Below, one piece after another: positions 7,705-16,147 of a DNA stretch of 64,000 nucleotides. Origin of the DNA: an uncultured bacterium (GTDB lineage Bacteria > Verrucomicrobiota > Lentisphaeria > Oligosphaerales > Oligosphaeraceae); NCBI GenBank assembly GCA_900548225.1, contig URJM01000002.1:4848-68847 (forward strand), in the 5' to 3' direction. The number at the start of each line of letters is the position of its first letter. Position 1 is the first letter of the stretch. The notes under the pieces were generated by a model, which was given only the letters and a program-made list of their open reading frames with translations, did no database searches and was not told the DNA's origin. The translations under genes and the position numbers were made by a program.

Positions 7705-8090
7705 GAAAGATGTGTGTGGACAGATGACTGTAAGCCAGATTCTGTGCACCGCCCCTAGAGGCGGCCGGCGACCATTCATCTAACGCGACCGATACCCGAA
7801 ACTGTGCTTGCGCATGGCGCGGGCCGCGCCTCGTTTCCTATTTGGTCTTGCACCAGAAGGGGCTTGCCGAGCCGACAGCCCTTGCGAGCTGCCGCGGTGG
7901 GCTCTTACCCCGCCTTTTTCACCCTTGCCGACACAAAATGGCCGGCGGTCTCTTCTCTGTTGCGCTATCCTGACCGCGGGTTCACCCCGCGATACCCGAT
8001 CTTTCAACCGGGCTTCCTGCCCTGTGGTGTCTGGACTTTCCTCCCCGAAATAATCGGAGCGGCCGCCCGTCTCCGTCCACACTCGGTTAA
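7705..8090 (-). ncRNA. rnpB: RNase P RNA, bacterial type A
   Basis: Minus strand carries the P4 hallmarks GGAGGAAAGUCCAGAC...ACAGGGCAGG (5' side) and ACAGAAUCUGGCUUACAG (3' side), plus internal GCAACAGAGAAG and GGUAAGAGCCCACCG blocks that match the E. coli M1 RNA layout. The ends (P1) are estimated to within about 15 nt. Confidence 0.85.
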
Positions 8091-8599: not shown

Positions 8600-8676
8600 T
8601 GGTGTGCGATGCAGGACTCGGACCAGCGACCTCTACCGTGTCAGGGTAGCGCTCTAACCAACTGAGCTAATCGCAC
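8600..8676 (-). tRNA. tRNA-Val (anticodon GAC)
   Basis: Minus-strand cloverleaf: GTGCGAT acceptor, TAGCTCAGTTGGTTAGAGC D-arm, anticodon loop CTGACAC, encoded CCA. The T-arm has one U-U mismatch and an unusual T-loop TCCGAGT (C at position 55). Confidence 0.7.
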
Positions 8677-10496: not shown

Positions 10497-10897
10497 ATCT
10501 TGAAGTGGTTTGCCGGTGCGCGGGGAAAATGCGCCTCAGGCTGAAAAACAGGGGGGAGTCTCTATATATTCCGTCTTCGGAAAAGTGAGGCCGAACTGGG
10601 TTTGGCGGAGGAATAAGACGGCTGTGGAGCTGGATATTGGAAGGCCGGCCGTGACGTCAGGAAATCTCCTGGACACAGCCGGCCAGAGCTTCGAGCCGTA
10701 CTCGATTGGTGGAAAATCTGGAGGCGCGAATCGGATTCGGACCGATGAATAAAGGTTTTGCAGACCTTCGCCTTACCACTTGGCTATCGCGCCGTCGAAA
10801 GCGTGCTTAATGTAAACACCTTTCCTCACTTTGCAAGAGCCCCGCGTAAAAACACGCCAACAGAACGGCGCGCCACCCTGCGGCACGGGCCTCGCGG

Positions 10898-12517
10898 CTA
10901 CCTGAACACCTTCATCCCCTCGGGCGCCAGTACCACGGGCTTGTCCCCCCTCCGGGCGATGACTGTCACCTCCCCCATTGGAGTTGGGCATACGGCGGTG
11001 GCGTAGTCCAGGTCGCAGAGGTTCGGGGCGACCTTGACTCCCCCGCTGTATCCGTCTCCAACCGGGGTGATTCCCGTGATTGTCTCGACAAGCCATGCCA
11101 TTGGTGATGCGCCCCATCCGTGGCAGAGGCTGTTTCGGAGTCCCTGGAAGCATCCTGCTCCCGACTCCAGGTGGATGTCGCGTCTGCCCCTGCGGGGCAT
11201 TTCGTCGATTCTGCCCGCCCCCTTTGCCCATTCCAGGTCGAACTGCTCCCAGATTGTGCGGCTGCCCAGCTCCAGCATTCCGCCGTAGTACTCCCTCAGC
11301 AGGTCAAGGGCTTCCTGGGTCTTGCCGGCCATGGTGTAGACCTTGAGGTAGTTGTCAAAGTGGAAGGTGGACAGTTCACTCCTGGGGTTGACGGAGAGGA
11401 CGCGCCTGAAGACGTCGCGGGGCTTCTCAAGTCCCGTCAACGCCGCCCAGGCCGCCGCGGACTTGGGGCGCGAGGACTTGACATGCCGTCTGGCGACCTC
11501 GCGGGCGACCCTCCTGGCGTCGGCGAGGATCTTCGCCTCCCCAAACAGCTCCGCCAGTTCGCCGCATGCCTGGACGGCCGCCAGGTACAGGGGGCCATAG
11601 CTGTCGGCGGGAGTCCGCTCCACGGCTCCCCAGTCCACAATCTCGCCGTGCATGACGGAGTCGGGGTCGTTGTCGAAGGAGTCGAGGAGAAGCTTCGAGA
11701 AGAAGACAAAGGGCTTCCTCTGGCTCCTCAGGAACTTGTCGTCGGCGAAGAACCTGTGGTATTCCCTCTGGGAAAGGAACCAATATGCGGTATAGGAGGG
11801 AATCCCGTTGAAGTATTTGTTGACAAGCGCCTCCTCGTTCAGGAACTCGAGGCTCTCGGGAATCGCGCTGTGCCTTCTGTAGAGGACGCCGCATGCGCGG
11901 ATTTCATTGTAGAGGTCCCCCATCCAGACAAGGCGGTCGCGCTTGGTCCCGTCGAGCAACAATGGCGAAATGCATTTGTTCAGGGTGGTGAAGCACGCCT
12001 CGTATATTGCGTTGAGACGCTCGTCGCTGCATTCGAAGAAGCCTACGCGCTTCGCGGGATGCGTCCACGCCTCCGCGGAAATCTCGCGCAGGTTCAGGGT
12101 TGCCTTTTCGTCCAGGTTGTCAAGGCGGAGAAACCTGAACCCAGTATTGCCCACTCGCCCAATCCCCATTGCGGAAAGGGGAAGCACGATGTCATGCATG
12201 GAATGGTCGTTGTTCGGGGTGTTGACGACCTCGCTCACGGATTCGCCAAAACGTATCCTTGCATTCACGGGACCGGCCCCGTCACGCCCGCGGGAAATCC
12301 GGACGCCCTGCAAGGGCTCGACCGTGTCGTATTCGAGAATCACGGAGCCGCCGGGAGGAATCTGGGCGCCAGGGGCACGCCAAATCGTCGCAGTCTCCCC
12401 TGCGACATCCTTCAGGCGCTCGGCTCCGCGAACCCCGGAGCTCTTCCAGACCACCCGGGTGGGGGCAAGATAGGAGACAGAACGCTTTTCACGGTAGACG
12501 GCGGGGGAATTGGGCAT
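10898..12517 (-). CDS. six-hairpin (alpha/alpha)6 glycoside hydrolase, GH78 alpha-L-rhamnosidase-like catalytic domain
   Basis: Motif RDRLVWMGD resembles the GH78 hallmark R-x-R-x-G-W-x-GD. At 539 aa it is shorter than typical multi-domain GH78 enzymes. Family assignment is tentative. Confidence 0.55.
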   Translation of the reverse strand: MPNSPAVYREKRSVSYLAPTRVVWKSSGVRGAERLKDVAGETATIWRAPGAQIPPGGSVILEYDTVEPLQGVRISRGRDGAGPVNARIRFGESVSEVVNTPNNDHSMHDIVLPLSAMGIGRVGNTGFRFLRLDNLDEKATLNLREISAEAWTHPAKRVGFFECSDERLNAIYEACFTTLNKCISPLLLDGTKRDRLVWMGDLYNEIRACGVLYRRHSAIPESLEFLNEEALVNKYFNGIPSYTAYWFLSQREYHRFFADDKFLRSQRKPFVFFSKLLLDSFDNDPDSVMHGEIVDWGAVERTPADSYGPLYLAAVQACGELAELFGEAKILADARRVAREVARRHVKSSRPKSAAAWAALTGLEKPRDVFRRVLSVNPRSELSTFHFDNYLKVYTMAGKTQEALDLLREYYGGMLELGSRTIWEQFDLEWAKGAGRIDEMPRRGRRDIHLESGAGCFQGLRNSLCHGWGASPMAWLVETITGITPVGDGYSGGVKVAPNLCDLDYATAVCPTPMGEVTVIARRGDKPVVLAPEGMKVFR

Positions 12518-12550
12518 GGTGGTGTGGGGATTGGAAAGGGGGATTGCCAG

Positions 12551-12612
12551 AGACGACGGATTAGTATACTTGCCTCCACCGGAGACGACGGATTAATATA
12601 CTTGCCTCCACC
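12551..12612. promoter_or_regulatory. two tandem 30-bp direct repeats (agacgacggatta[g/a]tatacttgcctccacc, period 32 bp) in the divergent promoter region between the GH78-like gene and abiEi
   Basis: Seen directly in the sequence, one mismatch between copies. Candidate operator. Confidence 0.4.
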
Positions 12613-12641
12613 CTGGACTATTACGCCATGCCCCGATGTGC

Positions 12642-12666
12642 AACCCTTCCAGCTAGAATCTTTGCA
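12642..12666. repeat. 25-bp direct repeat copy 1 (aacccttccagctagaatctttgc)
   Basis: Identical copy at 13903-13927. Together they bracket a 1.26-kb segment that carries abiEi. Confidence 0.75.
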
Positions 12667-12755
12667 AACCATTCTTTTTGAGAAAGCGAGTTGCAGAGCG
12701 TTGAGCTGTCATTATATTGATGTCAAAACAATCCCCAAAAGGGGAATAAATTGAC

Positions 12756-13286
12756 ATGAAACTCTACGACAATATCAATGCCACGGCACTTTCCAACTAT
12801 GGCCTGATCACATCCTCCCAGGCCACGGCACTTGGCGTGCGCCTCAAGGACCTGCTTGAATGGGTGAAAATCGGTCGTCTGGAGAAATGCTGGCGTGGAG
12901 TTTACCGCCTTGTGCATTATCTGCCGACGGAGTACGACCGCTATGCAGAGGCCTTGGCGACAGTTGGAGAAGATTCGATGATATGGGGGGAAAGCGTTCT
13001 CGCCATGCACAATCTTGCCATGGTGAATCCCGACAAAATTGAAGTCGCCACGACACGCCGTGTGCGCAGGGAACTGCCCACTTGGATAGGTCTTGTAAGG
13101 CTTCGAGAAGAACCTCTGCATGATGCCTTCAACGGCATCCGCTGCCAGCCTCTGGCGGAATCCTTCAGGCATTGCAAGGGAAAGGTCATGAACCAACGCC
13201 TCGCGGAGGCAGTTGTCGAAGCGGAACAAAGAGGTCTTCTCGGCATCACCGAGGCCTGTGCATTGAAAAAAGAGTTTCCATTATGA
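12756..13286 (+). CDS. AbiEi-family antitoxin/transcriptional regulator-like protein (AbiEi_4 N-terminal domain)
   Basis: N-terminal pattern ...GLITSSQATALGVRLKDLLEWVKIGRLEKCWRGVYRL matches the AbiEi wHTH consensus (...G.IT..QA..LG.....L..LV..G.L.....GVY.L). Confidence 0.6.
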   Translation: MKLYDNINATALSNYGLITSSQATALGVRLKDLLEWVKIGRLEKCWRGVYRLVHYLPTEYDRYAEALATVGEDSMIWGESVLAMHNLAMVNPDKIEVATTRRVRRELPTWIGLVRLREEPLHDAFNGIRCQPLAESFRHCKGKVMNQRLAEAVVEAEQRGLLGITEACALKKEFPL

Positions 13287-13902
13287 ACCGCCCAAATACA
13301 TGCTCCAACCTCATCAAGGCAATAAACTCGCTGTGGAAACTTGAAAAAGTAAACGCACCTTCGCAGGAGTAAACGCACTTCAAGGTGAAAAAAGCGTGCG
13401 TTTATTTCCGCAAGTCGTGCTTTCTATTCCGCAAGTTTTTTCCCCGCGCCGTCCTCCACAGGGCAGGTGTTGCGTTAGATTCTGCATAGTCGCCTCCTTT
13501 TGAGACGCAATTCTCCCGTCCGTCCTGCGCGGCATCTTTTTCGGAGGTATTAAACGCACGGGGCGGCTGAAGCGAACCTTGATATGACGGGGCGGCCTAG
13601 TCCCTGACCAGTTCCGGCGTCATTCGAACCTGGTCGGGGGCTATTTCCCCTATGCCGAGCTTTTCAAGGACATCCTCCCCGTAGCATTGGGCGAACCTTC
13701 TGGCGGCGATGACGTTCCCCAGCGACGCCCTGATCACGCTGTTCATGTGGGCCAGGGCCAGGTTCACCTTCTCCTGCGTGAGGAACTCCATGCTTTCGCC
13801 CTTGGGGAGTATCCTTGCAGCCGCTCAAGCCCGTCGAATATGTCGATGACCGACAGGGACGTGTTGGCGTCCCGCAGGAAGGCCAGCATGGCGGCGCATC
13901 AT

Positions 13903-13927
13903 AACCCTTCCAGCTAGAATCTTTGCG
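13903..13927. repeat. 25-bp direct repeat copy 2
   Basis: Matches 12642-12666 at 24-25 of 25 positions. Confidence 0.75.
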
Positions 13928-14044
13928 GAGAGAGCCTCCCCTTTTCCCCGGTCCCTGCTTGAAACTGTATATTACGCGCCATTACGGGAATGGCACTGTT
14001 TTCCCGATGTTTTTTTGGGTATTCAAGGATTTTTCTAGTCGTAT

Positions 14045-16147
14045 ATGGAACAGAGCATCACGGAACAGCTTGCGTTGCTGGCCCTTCAGTTGGGTGTGAT
14101 TATCTTCGCCTCTAACATTGTGGGGCGTCTTGCCCAGAAGATTAACATTCCGTCGGTGCTAGGCGAACTTGCCACGGGCGTCATCCTCGGACCCTATCTT
14201 CTTGGGTCGATCGCGCTGCCCTTCTTCCCCAACGGATTCTTCCCGCTGCCGGCGGCGAACGCCGGCATCCCAGTGTCAGACACCCTCTATGCGCTGGCGA
14301 CAATAGGCTCGGTAGTCCTTCTCTTCGAATCTGGGCTCGAGACAGACTTCCGCACATTCTTCCGCTACTCCTTTGCGGGGACGATTGTCGGACTGGGGGG
14401 CGTCGTCTTCTCATTCGTATTCGGAGACCTCCTGGCGGTTTTCATCTACAAGTGCGGTTGGCTTGACCCCCGTGCCCTCTTCCTGGGAATCCTCTCGACT
14501 GCGACCAGTGTCGGCATTTCGGCCAGAATCCTTTCCGAGAGAAAGGCGATTGACTCCCCCGAGGGCACGACCATCATGGCGGCGGCGGTCATCGACGACG
14601 TCCTCGGCATCATCTGCCTTGCGATTGTGATGGGCATTGTCGGCAGCGGGGACGCGTCCCACGTCTCCTGGGGCAAGATCGGCCTTGTTGCCATCAAGTC
14701 GATAGGCATCTGGGTGTTTTTCACTGCCCTGGGGCTTGCGGGCGCCCACTTCTTCGCCCGTGTCCTCAAGCGTTTCCACTCCAGCACCTCGTACGCGGTC
14801 CTGGCGCTTGGCGCGGCGCTGCTTCTTGCCGGAATCATGGAGCGTTGCGGGCTTGCGATGATCATTGGCGCATACACGGCGGGTCTCTCGCTCTCCCGCT
14901 CCGACCTCTCCTTTGCAATACAGCTCCGACTCCACGGCATCTACGGATTCCTGGTGCCGGTCTTCTTCGTCGTCATGGGCATGATGGTTGACGTCAAGGT
15001 CCTCGCCGACTGGCAGACCCTCAAGCTCGGACTCATCTTCACGGTCCTTGCAATCCTGGGGAAAATCATCGGCTGCATGCTGCCGGCCCTCGCCGTCAAC
15101 TTCAATCCAAAGGGGGCGCTCCGCATCGGGTGCGGAATGATTCCGCGTGGCGAGGTCGCACTCATCATCGCGGGAATAGGCGCGACTACGATGATGACAC
15201 TCAATGGACATCAGCAGCCCATCGTTGACTCCACGCTCTTCGGAGTCGCCATCATCATGACCCTGCTGACAACGCTGGTCGCACCAAATCTCCTGATGCT
15301 CAGCCTCAACATCCCGGGACGGGGCGTCCGGAAGGTGAAGCCGGACGCGCTGACAGTCCACCTGGAGTACCCCATGCCCTCCACGGTCGTGGCGGACTTC
15401 CTCGTCCGCCAGCTGATTGTCAACTTCCGCCAGGAGGGATTCAGGCACAGCGACTATTCGCGGGACTACAGCGTCGTCAACTTCCGCAAGGAGCGTTCCT
15501 CCTTTGTCATGACAGTCTCCGACGGGGTCATCTCCTTCGAGTGCTCCAAGGCGGACGCGCCGACCATCAAGAACATCTACAACGAGACCACCTACGAACT
15601 CTACCAGAACATCGAGGAGCTGCGCAGGCTCTCGCCGTCGATGGCCGTCGCCAAGGACGCCGATGTCTACGACAAGGTGATTCCCTATACGGGGCATGAT
15701 TCCCTCTCCCTGGACAAGATCATTCCCGAGGGCGGCGCCATAGTCGACCTGCAGGCGACCACGTACATGGGCGCCATCGAGGAGATGGTCCGCCACCTCT
15801 ACCGCTGCGGCCATGTCGGCGACTATGCCGCGTGCCTCCAGGACGTGCTTGCCCGCGAGGCCCAGGCCTCCACGGTCATGGACAAGGGGGTTGCAATGCC
15901 CCATGCCAAGTCCTCCACCGTCAGGCAGATGGTCTCCGTCGTGGCAATCTGCCGCCAGGACACCCCCGTCGAGGAGGACGGCAAACCCCTGCGCCTCATC
16001 ATTCTCACTGTTGCGCCCAAGGACCAGGACAGCCCGTACATGCAGTATATTGCGCATCAGGCATCCCGCATCTGCAGCCTTGCCAGCCTTGACGAGGTCT
16101 GCGCAATCAAGGTCCCTTCCGAACTCAGGAGGTTCTTCCTGGACTAG
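14045..16147 (+). CDS. cation:proton antiporter (CPA/Na+-H+ exchanger family) fused to a C-terminal PTS EIIA type-2 (EIIA-Ntr-like) domain
   Basis: About 400 aa of multi-TM hydrophobic core typical of Na+/H+ exchangers, then a C-terminal domain of about 150 aa with the EIIA-2 phosphorylation-site motif GVAMPHAK. Confidence 0.85.
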   Translation: MEQSITEQLALLALQLGVIIFASNIVGRLAQKINIPSVLGELATGVILGPYLLGSIALPFFPNGFFPLPAANAGIPVSDTLYALATIGSVVLLFESGLETDFRTFFRYSFAGTIVGLGGVVFSFVFGDLLAVFIYKCGWLDPRALFLGILSTATSVGISARILSERKAIDSPEGTTIMAAAVIDDVLGIICLAIVMGIVGSGDASHVSWGKIGLVAIKSIGIWVFFTALGLAGAHFFARVLKRFHSSTSYAVLALGAALLLAGIMERCGLAMIIGAYTAGLSLSRSDLSFAIQLRLHGIYGFLVPVFFVVMGMMVDVKVLADWQTLKLGLIFTVLAILGKIIGCMLPALAVNFNPKGALRIGCGMIPRGEVALIIAGIGATTMMTLNGHQQPIVDSTLFGVAIIMTLLTTLVAPNLLMLSLNIPGRGVRKVKPDALTVHLEYPMPSTVVADFLVRQLIVNFRQEGFRHSDYSRDYSVVNFRKERSSFVMTVSDGVISFECSKADAPTIKNIYNETTYELYQNIEELRRLSPSMAVAKDADVYDKVIPYTGHDSLSLDKIIPEGGAIVDLQATTYMGAIEEMVRHLYRCGHVGDYAACLQDVLAREAQASTVMDKGVAMPHAKSSTVRQMVSVVAICRQDTPVEEDGKPLRLIILTVAPKDQDSPYMQYIAHQASRICSLASLDEVCAIKVPSELRRFFLD

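What the first reader, a model, noticed from the sequence alone, without database searches (positions are those of the whole stretch)
12642..13927. 1.26-kb segment bounded by 25-bp direct repeats carrying an orphan AbiEi-type antitoxin gene and a decayed downstream region
Identical aacccttccagctagaatctttgc copies at 12642-12666 and 13903-13927 bracket abiEi (12756-13286) and about 600 bp with no intact ORF. AbiEi normally pairs with a downstream AbiEii nucleotidyltransferase toxin of about 290 aa, which is missing. A 29-codon ORF (13283-13372) starts with an ATGA overlap on the abiEi stop, exactly how TA toxin genes are coupled, and ends in a hairpin. This is consistent with a truncated toxin remnant. 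The direct repeats look like attL/attR-type scars of a small integrated or excised element.
Basis: partly seen in the sequence, partly recalled or inferred. Interest (0 to 1): 0.55.

Follow-up and report, generated by a model that had tools for sequence, protein, structure and literature searches.

The report
Orphan AbiEi antitoxin after IS-mediated toxin loss
A small two-gene toxin-antitoxin (AbiE) cassette was inserted between two housekeeping genes of a gut Lentisphaeria bacterium, duplicating 24 bp of the target, and an IS30-family insertion sequence later removed the toxin gene, leaving only the antitoxin; this is ordinary decay of a selfish gene pair.

Summary
An exact 24-nt (not 25-nt) direct repeat lies at 12642-12665 and 13903-13926 and brackets 1,237 bp. 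That segment carries an intact 176-aa AbiEi gene and a 29-codon ORF overlapping its stop codon. Two strains of the same species (L115, L117) have the empty site, with one copy of the 24-mer between the same flanking genes. The segment is therefore a real insertion with a 24-bp target duplication.

The "decayed 600 bp" is not a decayed toxin gene. Only the first 50 nt (13283-13332) belong to abiEii. Two fragments of its transposase gene follow on the minus strand (13597-13816 and 13817-13899).

Sister strains (L002, L004) carry the intact 272-aa AbiEii toxin at this site. The orphan allele is the commonest of the contigs recovered.

The most likely history is that an IS copy inserted at toxin codon 17 and then recombined with an older IS fragment downstream, deleting the toxin.

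No integrase is present, the repeat is target-derived, and the same cassette elsewhere has different flanks. The attL/attR reading is therefore only partly right. Toxin loss with the antitoxin kept recurs independently in two other lineages. Interest is low to moderate.

The parts
12642..12665 (.). Left copy of the 24-bp target duplication (native intergenic sequence between the GH78-like gene and the antiporter gene)
   Evidence: Exact repeat. A single copy is present in the empty sites L115 and L117.
12666..13902 (+). Inserted segment of 1,237 bp. The toxin-intact allele L003 has 1,686 bp here.
   Evidence: Absent from L115 and L117. G+C is about 0.49-0.55 through abiEi and the IS right end, against about 0.6 in the flanks.
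12720..12757 (+). 38-bp near-palindrome ATGTCAAAACAATCCCCAAAAGGGGAATAAATTGACAT overlapping the abiEi start codon; candidate AbiEi operator
   Evidence: Read directly from the sequence. Conserved in the divergent cassettes L103, L095 and L106. Protein binding was not tested.
12756..13286 (+). abiEi, an intact 176-aa antitoxin and putative autorepressor, now without its toxin
   Evidence: Pfam AbiEi_4. PADLOC AbiEi 142 bits over the full length. 141 homologues, mostly 174-176 aa. Intact in all 15 alleles examined.
13283..13332 (+). 5' remnant of abiEii (16 2/3 codons, MNRPNTCSNLIKAINSL). The 29-codon ORF 13283-13372 is this remnant read through into IS sequence.
   Evidence: Identical to the toxin start in L002/L004; divergence begins at 13333. 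tblastn matches AbiEii residues 1-19 only.
13333..13596 (-). Right end of an IS30-family insertion sequence: terminal inverted repeat (about 13333-13358), TAAACGCAC subterminal repeats and palindrome, and the 3' untranslated part
   Evidence: Window 13334-13816 is 90.5% identical to the intact IS copy L120 3601-4084. L120 has 26-nt terminal inverted repeats. The matching left end is seen in L009 and L002.
13597..13816 (-). 3' fragment of the IS30-family transposase gene, running from about codon 367 to the natural stop codon at 13597-13599
   Evidence: tblastn matches transposase residues 370-422. The C-terminus GIGEIAPDQVRMTPELVRD* matches the 439-aa intact transposases.
13817..13899 (-). Internal transposase fragment (codons about 279-307). 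A 184-bp deletion at 13816|13817 separates it from the 3' fragment, and it is truncated at its 5' side.
   Evidence: Alignment A4. 98.8% identical to L120 3334-3416.
13900..13902 (.). Three bases (cat) of unassigned origin between the IS fragment and the right repeat
   Evidence: Not IS sequence (L002 and L120 read gcg here) and not native target sequence (the empty site reads tgc).
13903..13926 (.). Right copy of the 24-bp target duplication, 118 bp upstream of the antiporter start codon

Best explanation
The host is an uncultured gut Lentisphaeria species. A two-gene AbiE (type IV toxin-antitoxin / abortive-infection) cassette was inserted into the 235-bp spacer between a divergently transcribed GH78-like glycosidase gene and a cation:proton antiporter gene. 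The inserted piece already carried a non-autonomous fragment of an IS30-family element at its 3' side. The insertion duplicated 24 bp of the target (shown).

In the lineage of this window, a full copy of the same 1.8-kb IS then inserted into abiEii at codon 17, in the same orientation as the old fragment. Homologous recombination between the two IS sequences removed the 5' part of the new IS together with toxin codons 18-272 (inferred from the anatomy).

What remains is the promoter/operator, an intact abiEi, 50 nt of abiEii, the IS right end, and the old transposase fragments with their 184-bp internal deletion. All of it still lies between the two 24-mers.

The antitoxin gene probably survives as a self-repressing winged-helix regulator. 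It may still neutralise a related AbiEii that arrives on incoming DNA. Losing the toxin is harmless to the cell, whereas losing the antitoxin first would not be.
For: Insertion and duplication: the empty sites L115 and L117 have a single 24-mer, and the flanks are otherwise about 97-98% identical.

Toxin present in alleles: L002 and L004 encode an intact 272-aa AbiEii starting at the same ATGA. It scores Pfam 53.8 bits, PADLOC 331 bits, and E = 5.6e-33 to the M. tuberculosis Rv1045 toxin structures. L003 has the same gene with a 1-nt frameshift.

Pairing is the rule: the homologue contexts L095-L105, L109-L113 and L121 have AbiEi followed by a 272-300-aa AbiEii.

IS identity: NCBIfam IS30 transposase 83.5 bits against a cutoff of 80. 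The intact copy L120 is 1,796 bp with 26-nt inverted repeats and a 439-aa transposase. Window 13334-13899 aligns to it at 90-99%.

IS end at 13333: the window and L003 diverge exactly there. The other IS end is seen in L009.

Recombination step: the window shares the 184-bp deletion, the 5' truncation and the diagnostic SNPs with the toxin-bearing alleles to the right of about 13750. To the left it carries the natural transposase 3' end and inverted repeat that those alleles lack.

Orphan allele is common: L005, L007, L008 (plus 13 similar places) and L010-L014. abiEi is intact in 15 of 15 alleles.
Against: No intermediate was found, that is, a full IS sitting inside an otherwise complete abiEii. 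The insertion-then-recombination order is therefore inferred. A single illegitimate replacement event cannot be excluded.

The window's IS terminus reads GTGGAAACTTG, whereas the intact copy reads GTAACTTG. This 3-nt difference is unexplained.

The mechanism that made the 24-bp duplication is unknown.

L002 shows a full-length IS joined to the cassette, which could mean a larger ancestral insert. However, its SNPs switch to the intact-IS type about 90 bp from the cassette/IS junction, so it looks like a recombinant or an assembly chimera.

No expression or activity data exist for the orphan AbiEi. The 6:6 ratio of synonymous to non-synonymous polymorphic codons is too small a sample to show selection.
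Confidence: 0.75

Rival explanations
1. One reading: a small integrative element that entered by site-specific recombination. On this model the 24-mers are attL and attR, and the downstream region is a toxin gene decayed by point mutation.
For: Exact direct repeats bracket a low-G+C segment. The empty site contains exactly one copy. A length of 24 bp is within the range of att cores; Furuta et al. used more than 30 bp to exclude such cases (PMC2853133).
Against: There is no integrase or recombinase in the segment or next to it. The junction is not in a tRNA gene; tRNA-Cys is 1.8 kb away. The 89%-identical cassette in L103-L105 has unrelated sequence where the core should be. L095 has about 128-nt flanking repeats of different sequence. 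The downstream DNA is IS30-derived, not toxin-derived.
Confidence: 0.12
2. The 24-bp duplication was made by the IS30-family transposase itself, as IS1630 of Mycoplasma makes 19-26-bp duplications. On this model the cassette was moved as a passenger of the IS.
For: An IS30-family fragment lies at the right edge of the insert. IS1630 is a precedent for long duplications in this family (PMC2853133). The 24-mer is also a junction for another mobile-element end in L119.
Against: The one intact copy with both flanks (L120) has no flanking direct repeat of 10 nt or more, and at most a 3-bp CAT. Neither edge of the insert is an IS terminus: the left edge is the region upstream of abiEi and the right edge is inside the transposase gene.
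Confidence: 0.08
3. The cassette plus an intact IS and further genes (as in contig L002) was the original, larger island. The window allele arose from it by deletions only.
For: L002 joins the same left flank, the cassette and a full-length transposase gene to other genes, including an AAA/DUF4143 ATPase.
Against: The IS part of L002 carries the SNPs of free IS copies rather than those of the resident fragment. No second 24-mer was reported for that 21.5-kb contig. This model would need a deletion ending 3 bp from the right repeat. It also cannot explain why the window has IS 3' sequence that L002 lacks.
Confidence: 0.05

Closest known systems
AbiE type IV toxin-antitoxin / abortive infection system (AbiEi-AbiEii; Dy et al. 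2014, PMC3985639) and the related M. tuberculosis MenA3-MenT3 (Rv1044-Rv1045) pair
   Same: [quoted passage not shown] In intact alleles the operon is bicistronic with overlapping genes. The toxin is a DUF1814/AbiEii nucleotidyltransferase, with E = 5.6e-33 to Rv1045 structures. A palindrome lies at the promoter, as expected for an autorepressor.
   Different: The toxin is gone in this window, so the locus cannot act as a toxin-antitoxin or abortive-infection system. The antitoxin is shorter (176 aa) than S. agalactiae AbiEi (my recollection, about 195 aa). It has no detectable sequence relative in the PDB.
IS30-family insertion sequences
   Same: In the intact copy: a DDE transposase with an HTH_38 N-terminal domain, about 26-nt terminal inverted repeats, a length of about 1.8 kb, and probably a 3-bp duplication.
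   Different: Only a dead remnant is present here: one end plus two transposase fragments. The element has unusually long untranslated ends (about 215 and 260 bp) with repeated TAAACGCAC motifs and palindromes. I could not check these against ISfinder.
'Insertion with long target duplication' of restriction-modification gene units (Nobusato et al. 2000; Furuta, Abe and Kobayashi 2010, PMC2853133)
   Same: A compact selfish gene pair with no recombinase of its own is inserted relative to an empty allele. It is flanked by a direct duplication of unique target sequence. The duplication length and sequence differ between insertions: 24 bp here and about 128 nt in L095.
   Different: The cargo is a toxin-antitoxin pair, not a restriction-modification system. 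The 24 bp falls below their 30-bp criterion. The insert also carries an IS fragment. The 128-nt case has no empty-site control.
Orphan antitoxins / anti-addiction modules left by toxin-antitoxin decay
   Same: The toxin is inactivated while the antitoxin ORF stays intact. The same outcome arose independently in UBA1724 (L106) and in a third lineage (L122).
   Different: No functional evidence here shows that the orphan protects against incoming AbiE systems.

Membership tests
AbiEi antitoxin family | N-terminal winged-helix AbiEi_4 domain | tested here: met
   Pfam PF13338, 27.1 bits (cutoff 25), residues 10-53.
AbiEi antitoxin family | Full-length similarity to curated AbiEi models, including the C-terminal domain | tested here: met
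   PADLOC PDLC02256, 142 bits, residues 4-173 of 176.
AbiEi antitoxin family | Encoded immediately upstream of, and overlapping, an AbiEii toxin gene | tested here: not met
   In the window only 50 nt of abiEii remain. The feature is met in the allelic strains L002 and L004 and in the intact-cassette contexts of other homologues.
AbiEi antitoxin family | Autoregulation through inverted repeats in its promoter | tested here: inconclusive
   A conserved 38-bp near-palindrome lies at 12720-12757. Binding and repression were not tested.
AbiEi antitoxin family | Neutralises the cognate toxin | not testable with these tools
   Requires co-expression experiments.
AbiEii / MenT nucleotidyltransferase toxin | DUF1814 nucleotidyltransferase core | tested here: not met
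   Absent from the window. Present in L002: Pfam AbiEii 53.8 bits, PADLOC 331 bits, PDB 6y5u E = 5.6e-33.
IS30 family insertion sequence | IS30-type DDE transposase with an HTH_38 N-terminal domain | tested here: met
   NCBIfam NF033563, 83.5 bits (cutoff 80) for the L002 copy. Intact 439-aa relatives carry PF13936. The window holds only residues about 279-307 and 367-439.
IS30 family insertion sequence | Terminal inverted repeats | tested here: met
   26-nt arms, 85% complementary, in L120. One arm is present in the window at 13333-13358.
IS30 family insertion sequence | Short (2-3 bp) target duplication | tested here: inconclusive
   One intact copy is compatible with a 3-bp CAT and has no long repeat. 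Only one copy had both flanks.
Integrase-mediated genomic islet (attL/attR) | Integrase or recombinase gene in or beside the element | tested here: not met
   None found by ORF listing or by Pfam/NCBIfam scans.
Integrase-mediated genomic islet (attL/attR) | The same core sequence at independent insertions of the element | tested here: not met
   L103-L105 and L095 have unrelated flanks.
Integrase-mediated genomic islet (attL/attR) | Empty site with a single copy of the repeat | tested here: met
   L115 and L117.
Insertion with long target duplication (Kobayashi laboratory definition) | Insert absent from a related genome, and the repeat aligns to a unique target there | tested here: met
   The 24-mer is unique in the window.
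Insertion with long target duplication (Kobayashi laboratory definition) | Duplication longer than 30 bp | tested here: not met
   24 bp here. About 128 nt in L095, but that case has no empty-site control. The criterion is quoted from PMC2853133.
Insertion with long target duplication (Kobayashi laboratory definition) | No other mobile element involved | tested here: inconclusive
   A non-autonomous IS30 fragment lies inside the insert, but its ends are not at the insert boundaries.

The most novel reading that the evidence does not exclude
AbiE cassettes of this 176-aa AbiEi subfamily may spread as recombinase-free units by 'insertion with long, variable target duplication': 24 bp here and about 128 nt in L095. 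So far this mode has been described for restriction-modification systems. The cassette's left boundary is the same in independent insertions, which hints at a defined end. The polymorphic gut population, with empty, toxin-intact and orphan alleles, would then be a natural system for working out that unexplained mechanism.
Probability: 0.2. Interest if true: 0.55.

Novelty: new member of a known kind. Interest (0 to 1): 0.3.

Why it matters
The locus gives a dated, step-by-step example of how a chromosomal toxin-antitoxin/defence module is acquired and then disarmed. Empty, toxin-intact, frameshifted and orphan alleles all coexist in one gut species. The same outcome, toxin lost and antitoxin kept, arose independently in two other lineages. 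It also corrects an annotation trap: the short ORF and hairpin after abiEi are an insertion-sequence end, not toxin remains. The only point of wider interest is the recombinase-free insertion with target duplication, which might extend a poorly understood mobility mode from restriction-modification systems to toxin-antitoxin pairs.

Tried and rejected
1. Exact-protein look-ups of the window's own glycosidase and antiporter found nothing. The empty site was reached only through the 99%-identical cluster representative P0121.

2. The genome-contig scan with the antiporter did not find this species. The best hits were 71-76% identical Lentisphaeria MAGs with different gene order, so it gave no cross-species empty site.

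3. The cassette has no match in the plasmid or phage collections or in IMG/VR. The 24-mer is absent from IMG/VR.

4. I considered integron attC sites for the 128-nt repeats of L095 and the repeat-separated toxin-antitoxin array of L109. The repeat folds into several small hairpins rather than one long imperfect palindrome. By eye it has no complementary R''/R' ends. Rfam has no match. This idea was rejected, though only weakly.

5. I considered that this IS makes long duplications. The intact copy L120 does not support this.

6. I considered L002 as the ancestral arrangement and rejected it on its SNP pattern.

7. I considered a hot spot at toxin codon 17, because the UBA1724 deletion starts within 1-4 nt of the IS insertion point. 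The third lineage's deletion starts at codon 36, so this remains an unexplained coincidence.

8. The sigma-70 promoter scan of 12450-14100 found nothing.

9. NCBIfam has no model that matches this AbiEi.

Full report
**1. Observation**

The sequence AACCCTTCCAGCTAGAATCTTTGC occurs exactly twice in the 64-kb window, at 12642-12665 and 13903-13926. With up to three mismatches allowed there is no further copy, and none was expected in 100 dinucleotide shuffles. The repeat is 24 nt, one less than reported, because the neighbouring bases differ on both sides.

- An intact 176-aa ORF at 12756-13286.
- A 29-codon ORF at 13283-13372 that starts in an ATGA overlap with the first ORF's stop codon.
- About 530 bp with no long ORF.

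The 176-aa protein passes the Pfam AbiEi_4 threshold at its N-terminus (27.1 bits against 25). It matches a PADLOC AbiEi model end to end (142 bits). NCBIfam and the PDB sequence search give nothing.

It belongs to a tight family of 174-176-aa proteins. These are found in Victivallales/Lentisphaeria, Kiritimatiellae and Adlercreutzia, mostly in metagenomes.

**2. The partner toxin exists in sister strains**

An exact-match scan of metagenome contigs with the 24-mer and look-ups of near-identical AbiEi proteins recovered the same chromosomal locus from many human-gut samples.

In L002 and L004 the ATGA overlap opens an intact 272-aa gene. That gene scores as follows:
- Pfam AbiEii, 53.8 bits.
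- PADLOC AbiEii, 331 bits.
- E = 5.6e-33 to the M. tuberculosis Rv1045 (MenT3/TglT) toxin structures.

L003 has the same gene with a 1-nt deletion at codon 5.

The contexts retrieved for six other family members (P0005, P0009, P0012, P0029, P0035, P0050) mostly show the AbiEi gene followed by a 272-300-aa AbiEii. In five of these six groups it overlaps by 4 nt; in the P0050 group it starts 2 nt after the stop codon. The exceptions are the two toxin-deleted alleles described in section 7.

The orphan state in the window is therefore derived. tblastn of the toxin against the whole window finds only residues 1-19, at 13283-13339.

**3. What replaced the toxin**

The window and the toxin-bearing alleles are collinear up to 13332 and again from 13656 onward. 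Between those points, 323 bp in the window replace 773 bp of toxin gene.

On the minus strand, 13597-13899 encodes pieces of an IS30-family transposase. The full-length copy in L002 scores 83.5 bits against NCBIfam transpos_IS30, whose cutoff is 80. Relatives at 90-93% identity are 439 aa long and carry the HTH_38 domain. Most sit on contigs of about 2 kb, as multicopy elements usually do.

One intact copy with both flanks, L120, defines the element:
- It is 1,796 bp long.
- Its terminal inverted repeats are 26 nt.
- TAAACGCAC/GTGCGTTTA motifs are repeated near both ends.

Window 13334-13816 aligns to the right part of that element at 90.5%, and 13817-13899 aligns to an internal part at 98.8%.

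This resolves the region downstream of abiEi as follows:
- 13333-13358 is the IS terminal repeat.
- 13597-13599 is the natural transposase stop codon.
- A 184-bp internal deletion sits at 13816|13817.
- The gene is cut off at codon about 279, at 13899.

Only codons 1-17 of the 29-codon ORF are toxin. The remainder is read-through into the IS.

**4. How the toxin was lost (inferred)**

The toxin-bearing alleles already contain the same transposase fragments, with the same 184-bp deletion and the same 5' truncation. In those alleles the fragments are joined to the cassette 4 nt after the toxin stop codon. They lack the last 19 transposase codons and the IS terminus.

The window has those missing IS parts. 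To the right of about 13750 it carries the SNPs of the resident fragment, not those of free IS copies.

The simplest history has two steps:
1. A complete IS inserted at toxin codon 17, in the same orientation as the old fragment.
2. Homologous recombination between the two IS sequences deleted everything in between.

Contigs L009 and L015 show the same toxin/IS junction, followed by an internally deleted IS whose other terminus is present. This confirms that 13333 is a genuine IS end. I did not find the predicted intermediate, so the order of events remains an inference.

L002 joins the cassette to a full-length IS and then to unrelated genes. Its SNPs switch to the free-IS type about 90 bp from the junction. 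It is best read as a recombinant or an assembly chimera.

**5. The repeats mark a real insertion**

The window's own antiporter protein is not on record. Its 99%-identical cluster representative P0121 led to contigs L115 and L117. In these the glycosidase and antiporter genes are separated by only 235-236 bp containing a single 24-mer. The flanks match the window on both sides.

Window 12666-13902 is therefore an insertion, and the 24-mer is duplicated native sequence.

Four points argue against att-type site-specific recombination:
- No integrase is present.
- The junction is not in a tRNA gene.
- A cassette about 89% identical in nucleotide sequence, in another genomic context (L103-L105), loses similarity within about 3 nt of the inner edge of the left repeat, and the sequence upstream is unrelated.
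- In yet another context (L095-L098) the cassette is bracketed by about 128-nt direct repeats of different sequence, 98% identical to each other.

The IS itself does not explain the 24 bp. Its intact copy has at most a 3-bp duplication, and neither insert boundary is an IS terminus.

[quoted passage not shown] Here the repeat is shorter than that paper's 30-bp criterion, and the mechanism remains unknown.

**6. Population picture**

Among the contigs recovered, the orphan allele is the most frequent: L005, L007, L008 (with 13 further similar places) and L010-L014. abiEi is intact in all 15 alleles examined. There are six synonymous and six non-synonymous polymorphic codons, too few to prove selection.

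A 38-bp near-palindrome overlapping the abiEi start codon (12720-12757) is conserved in divergent cassettes. It fits the known autorepression of abiE operons by AbiEi through inverted repeats (PMC3985639).

**7. Recurrence**

Toxin loss with an intact antitoxin arose independently at least twice more:
- In Lentisphaeria UBA1724 (L106/L107), a microhomology deletion joins toxin codon about 17 to codon about 250.
- In a third lineage (L122, compared with L121), a deletion joins codon 36 to codon about 247.

This is the expected direction of toxin-antitoxin decay, since toxin loss is harmless while antitoxin loss is not.

**8. Verdict**

It is wrong about the nature of the downstream DNA and about the att character of the repeats.

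The locus is a new but ordinary example of known kinds of element: an AbiE toxin-antitoxin module, an IS30-family element, and IS-mediated gene loss. One open mechanistic point remains, namely how the target duplication was made.

Noticed in passing
window 12547-12610: A 32-bp unit (CCRGAGACGACGGATTARTATACTTGCCTCCA) is tandemly duplicated just upstream of the glycosidase gene start. L002, L004 and the empty-site strains L115 and L117 have a single unit, so the duplication is polymorphic and independent of the cassette.
   Followed up: partly
L106 1127-1252 (Lentisphaeria UBA1724) and L107: An independent orphan abiEi. The abiEii has an internal microhomology deletion whose left end lies within 1-4 nt of the position where the IS entered the toxin gene in the window lineage (codon 17). 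I estimate the chance of this at about 1%. It is unexplained.
   Followed up: partly
L122 3528-3650 compared with L121 3528-4430: A third lineage (AbiEi 57% identical) is polymorphic for a toxin-gene deletion from codon 36 to about codon 247, at a GTCGTC microhomology, and keeps abiEi. Both deletion alleles retain the last roughly 25-55 toxin codons.
   Followed up: partly
L095 2896-3023 and 4583-4711 (also L096-L098): About 128-nt direct repeats, 98% identical, bracket an abiEi-abiEii cassette that sits upstream of a second AbiEi_4 + PLD gene pair. The repeat folds into several small GNRA-type hairpins and has no Rfam match.
   Followed up: partly
L119 1-29 and L013 112-140: The same foreign sequence end (...GCGAACTATTTTTCATTCTTTGTTACTG) abuts nucleotide 3 of the 24-mer in L119 and window position 10858 (downstream of the glycosidase gene) in L013. 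This suggests another mobile element and possibly an adjacent deletion ending in the 24-mer, which would make the 24-mer a recurrent breakpoint.
   Followed up: partly
L009 8578-9362 and L015 5247-5633: An internally deleted, roughly 785-bp derivative of the IS, with both termini but no DDE region, follows the toxin stub. In L009 it is joined to the rpsP-trmD-rplS locus, either by a chromosomal rearrangement or by an assembly join through the IS.
   Followed up: partly
L003 1666-1707: The otherwise intact toxin gene of L003 has a 1-nt deletion in an A-run at codon 5 (CCCAAAT to CCCAAT). This is either another independent toxin inactivation or a sequencing error.
   Followed up: no
L109 3300-8400 (Kiritimatiellae-type contig): Here the abiE pair sits at the head of a run of small toxin-antitoxin cassettes (DUF4160/DUF2442, PIN, Unstab_antitox). 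These are separated by families of 24-53-nt imperfect repeats, an array-like organisation reminiscent of cassette arrays.
   Followed up: no
window 13333-13343 compared with L120 4075-4082: The IS terminus in the window and in L009 reads GTGGAAACTTG, whereas the intact copy reads GTAACTTG. The 3-nt difference at the very end of the element is unexplained.
   Followed up: no
window 7714-8078, 8600-8676, 10719-10793: RNase P RNA (class A), tRNA-Val and tRNA-Cys lie upstream of the locus on the minus strand. None is at the insertion junction.
   Followed up: yes
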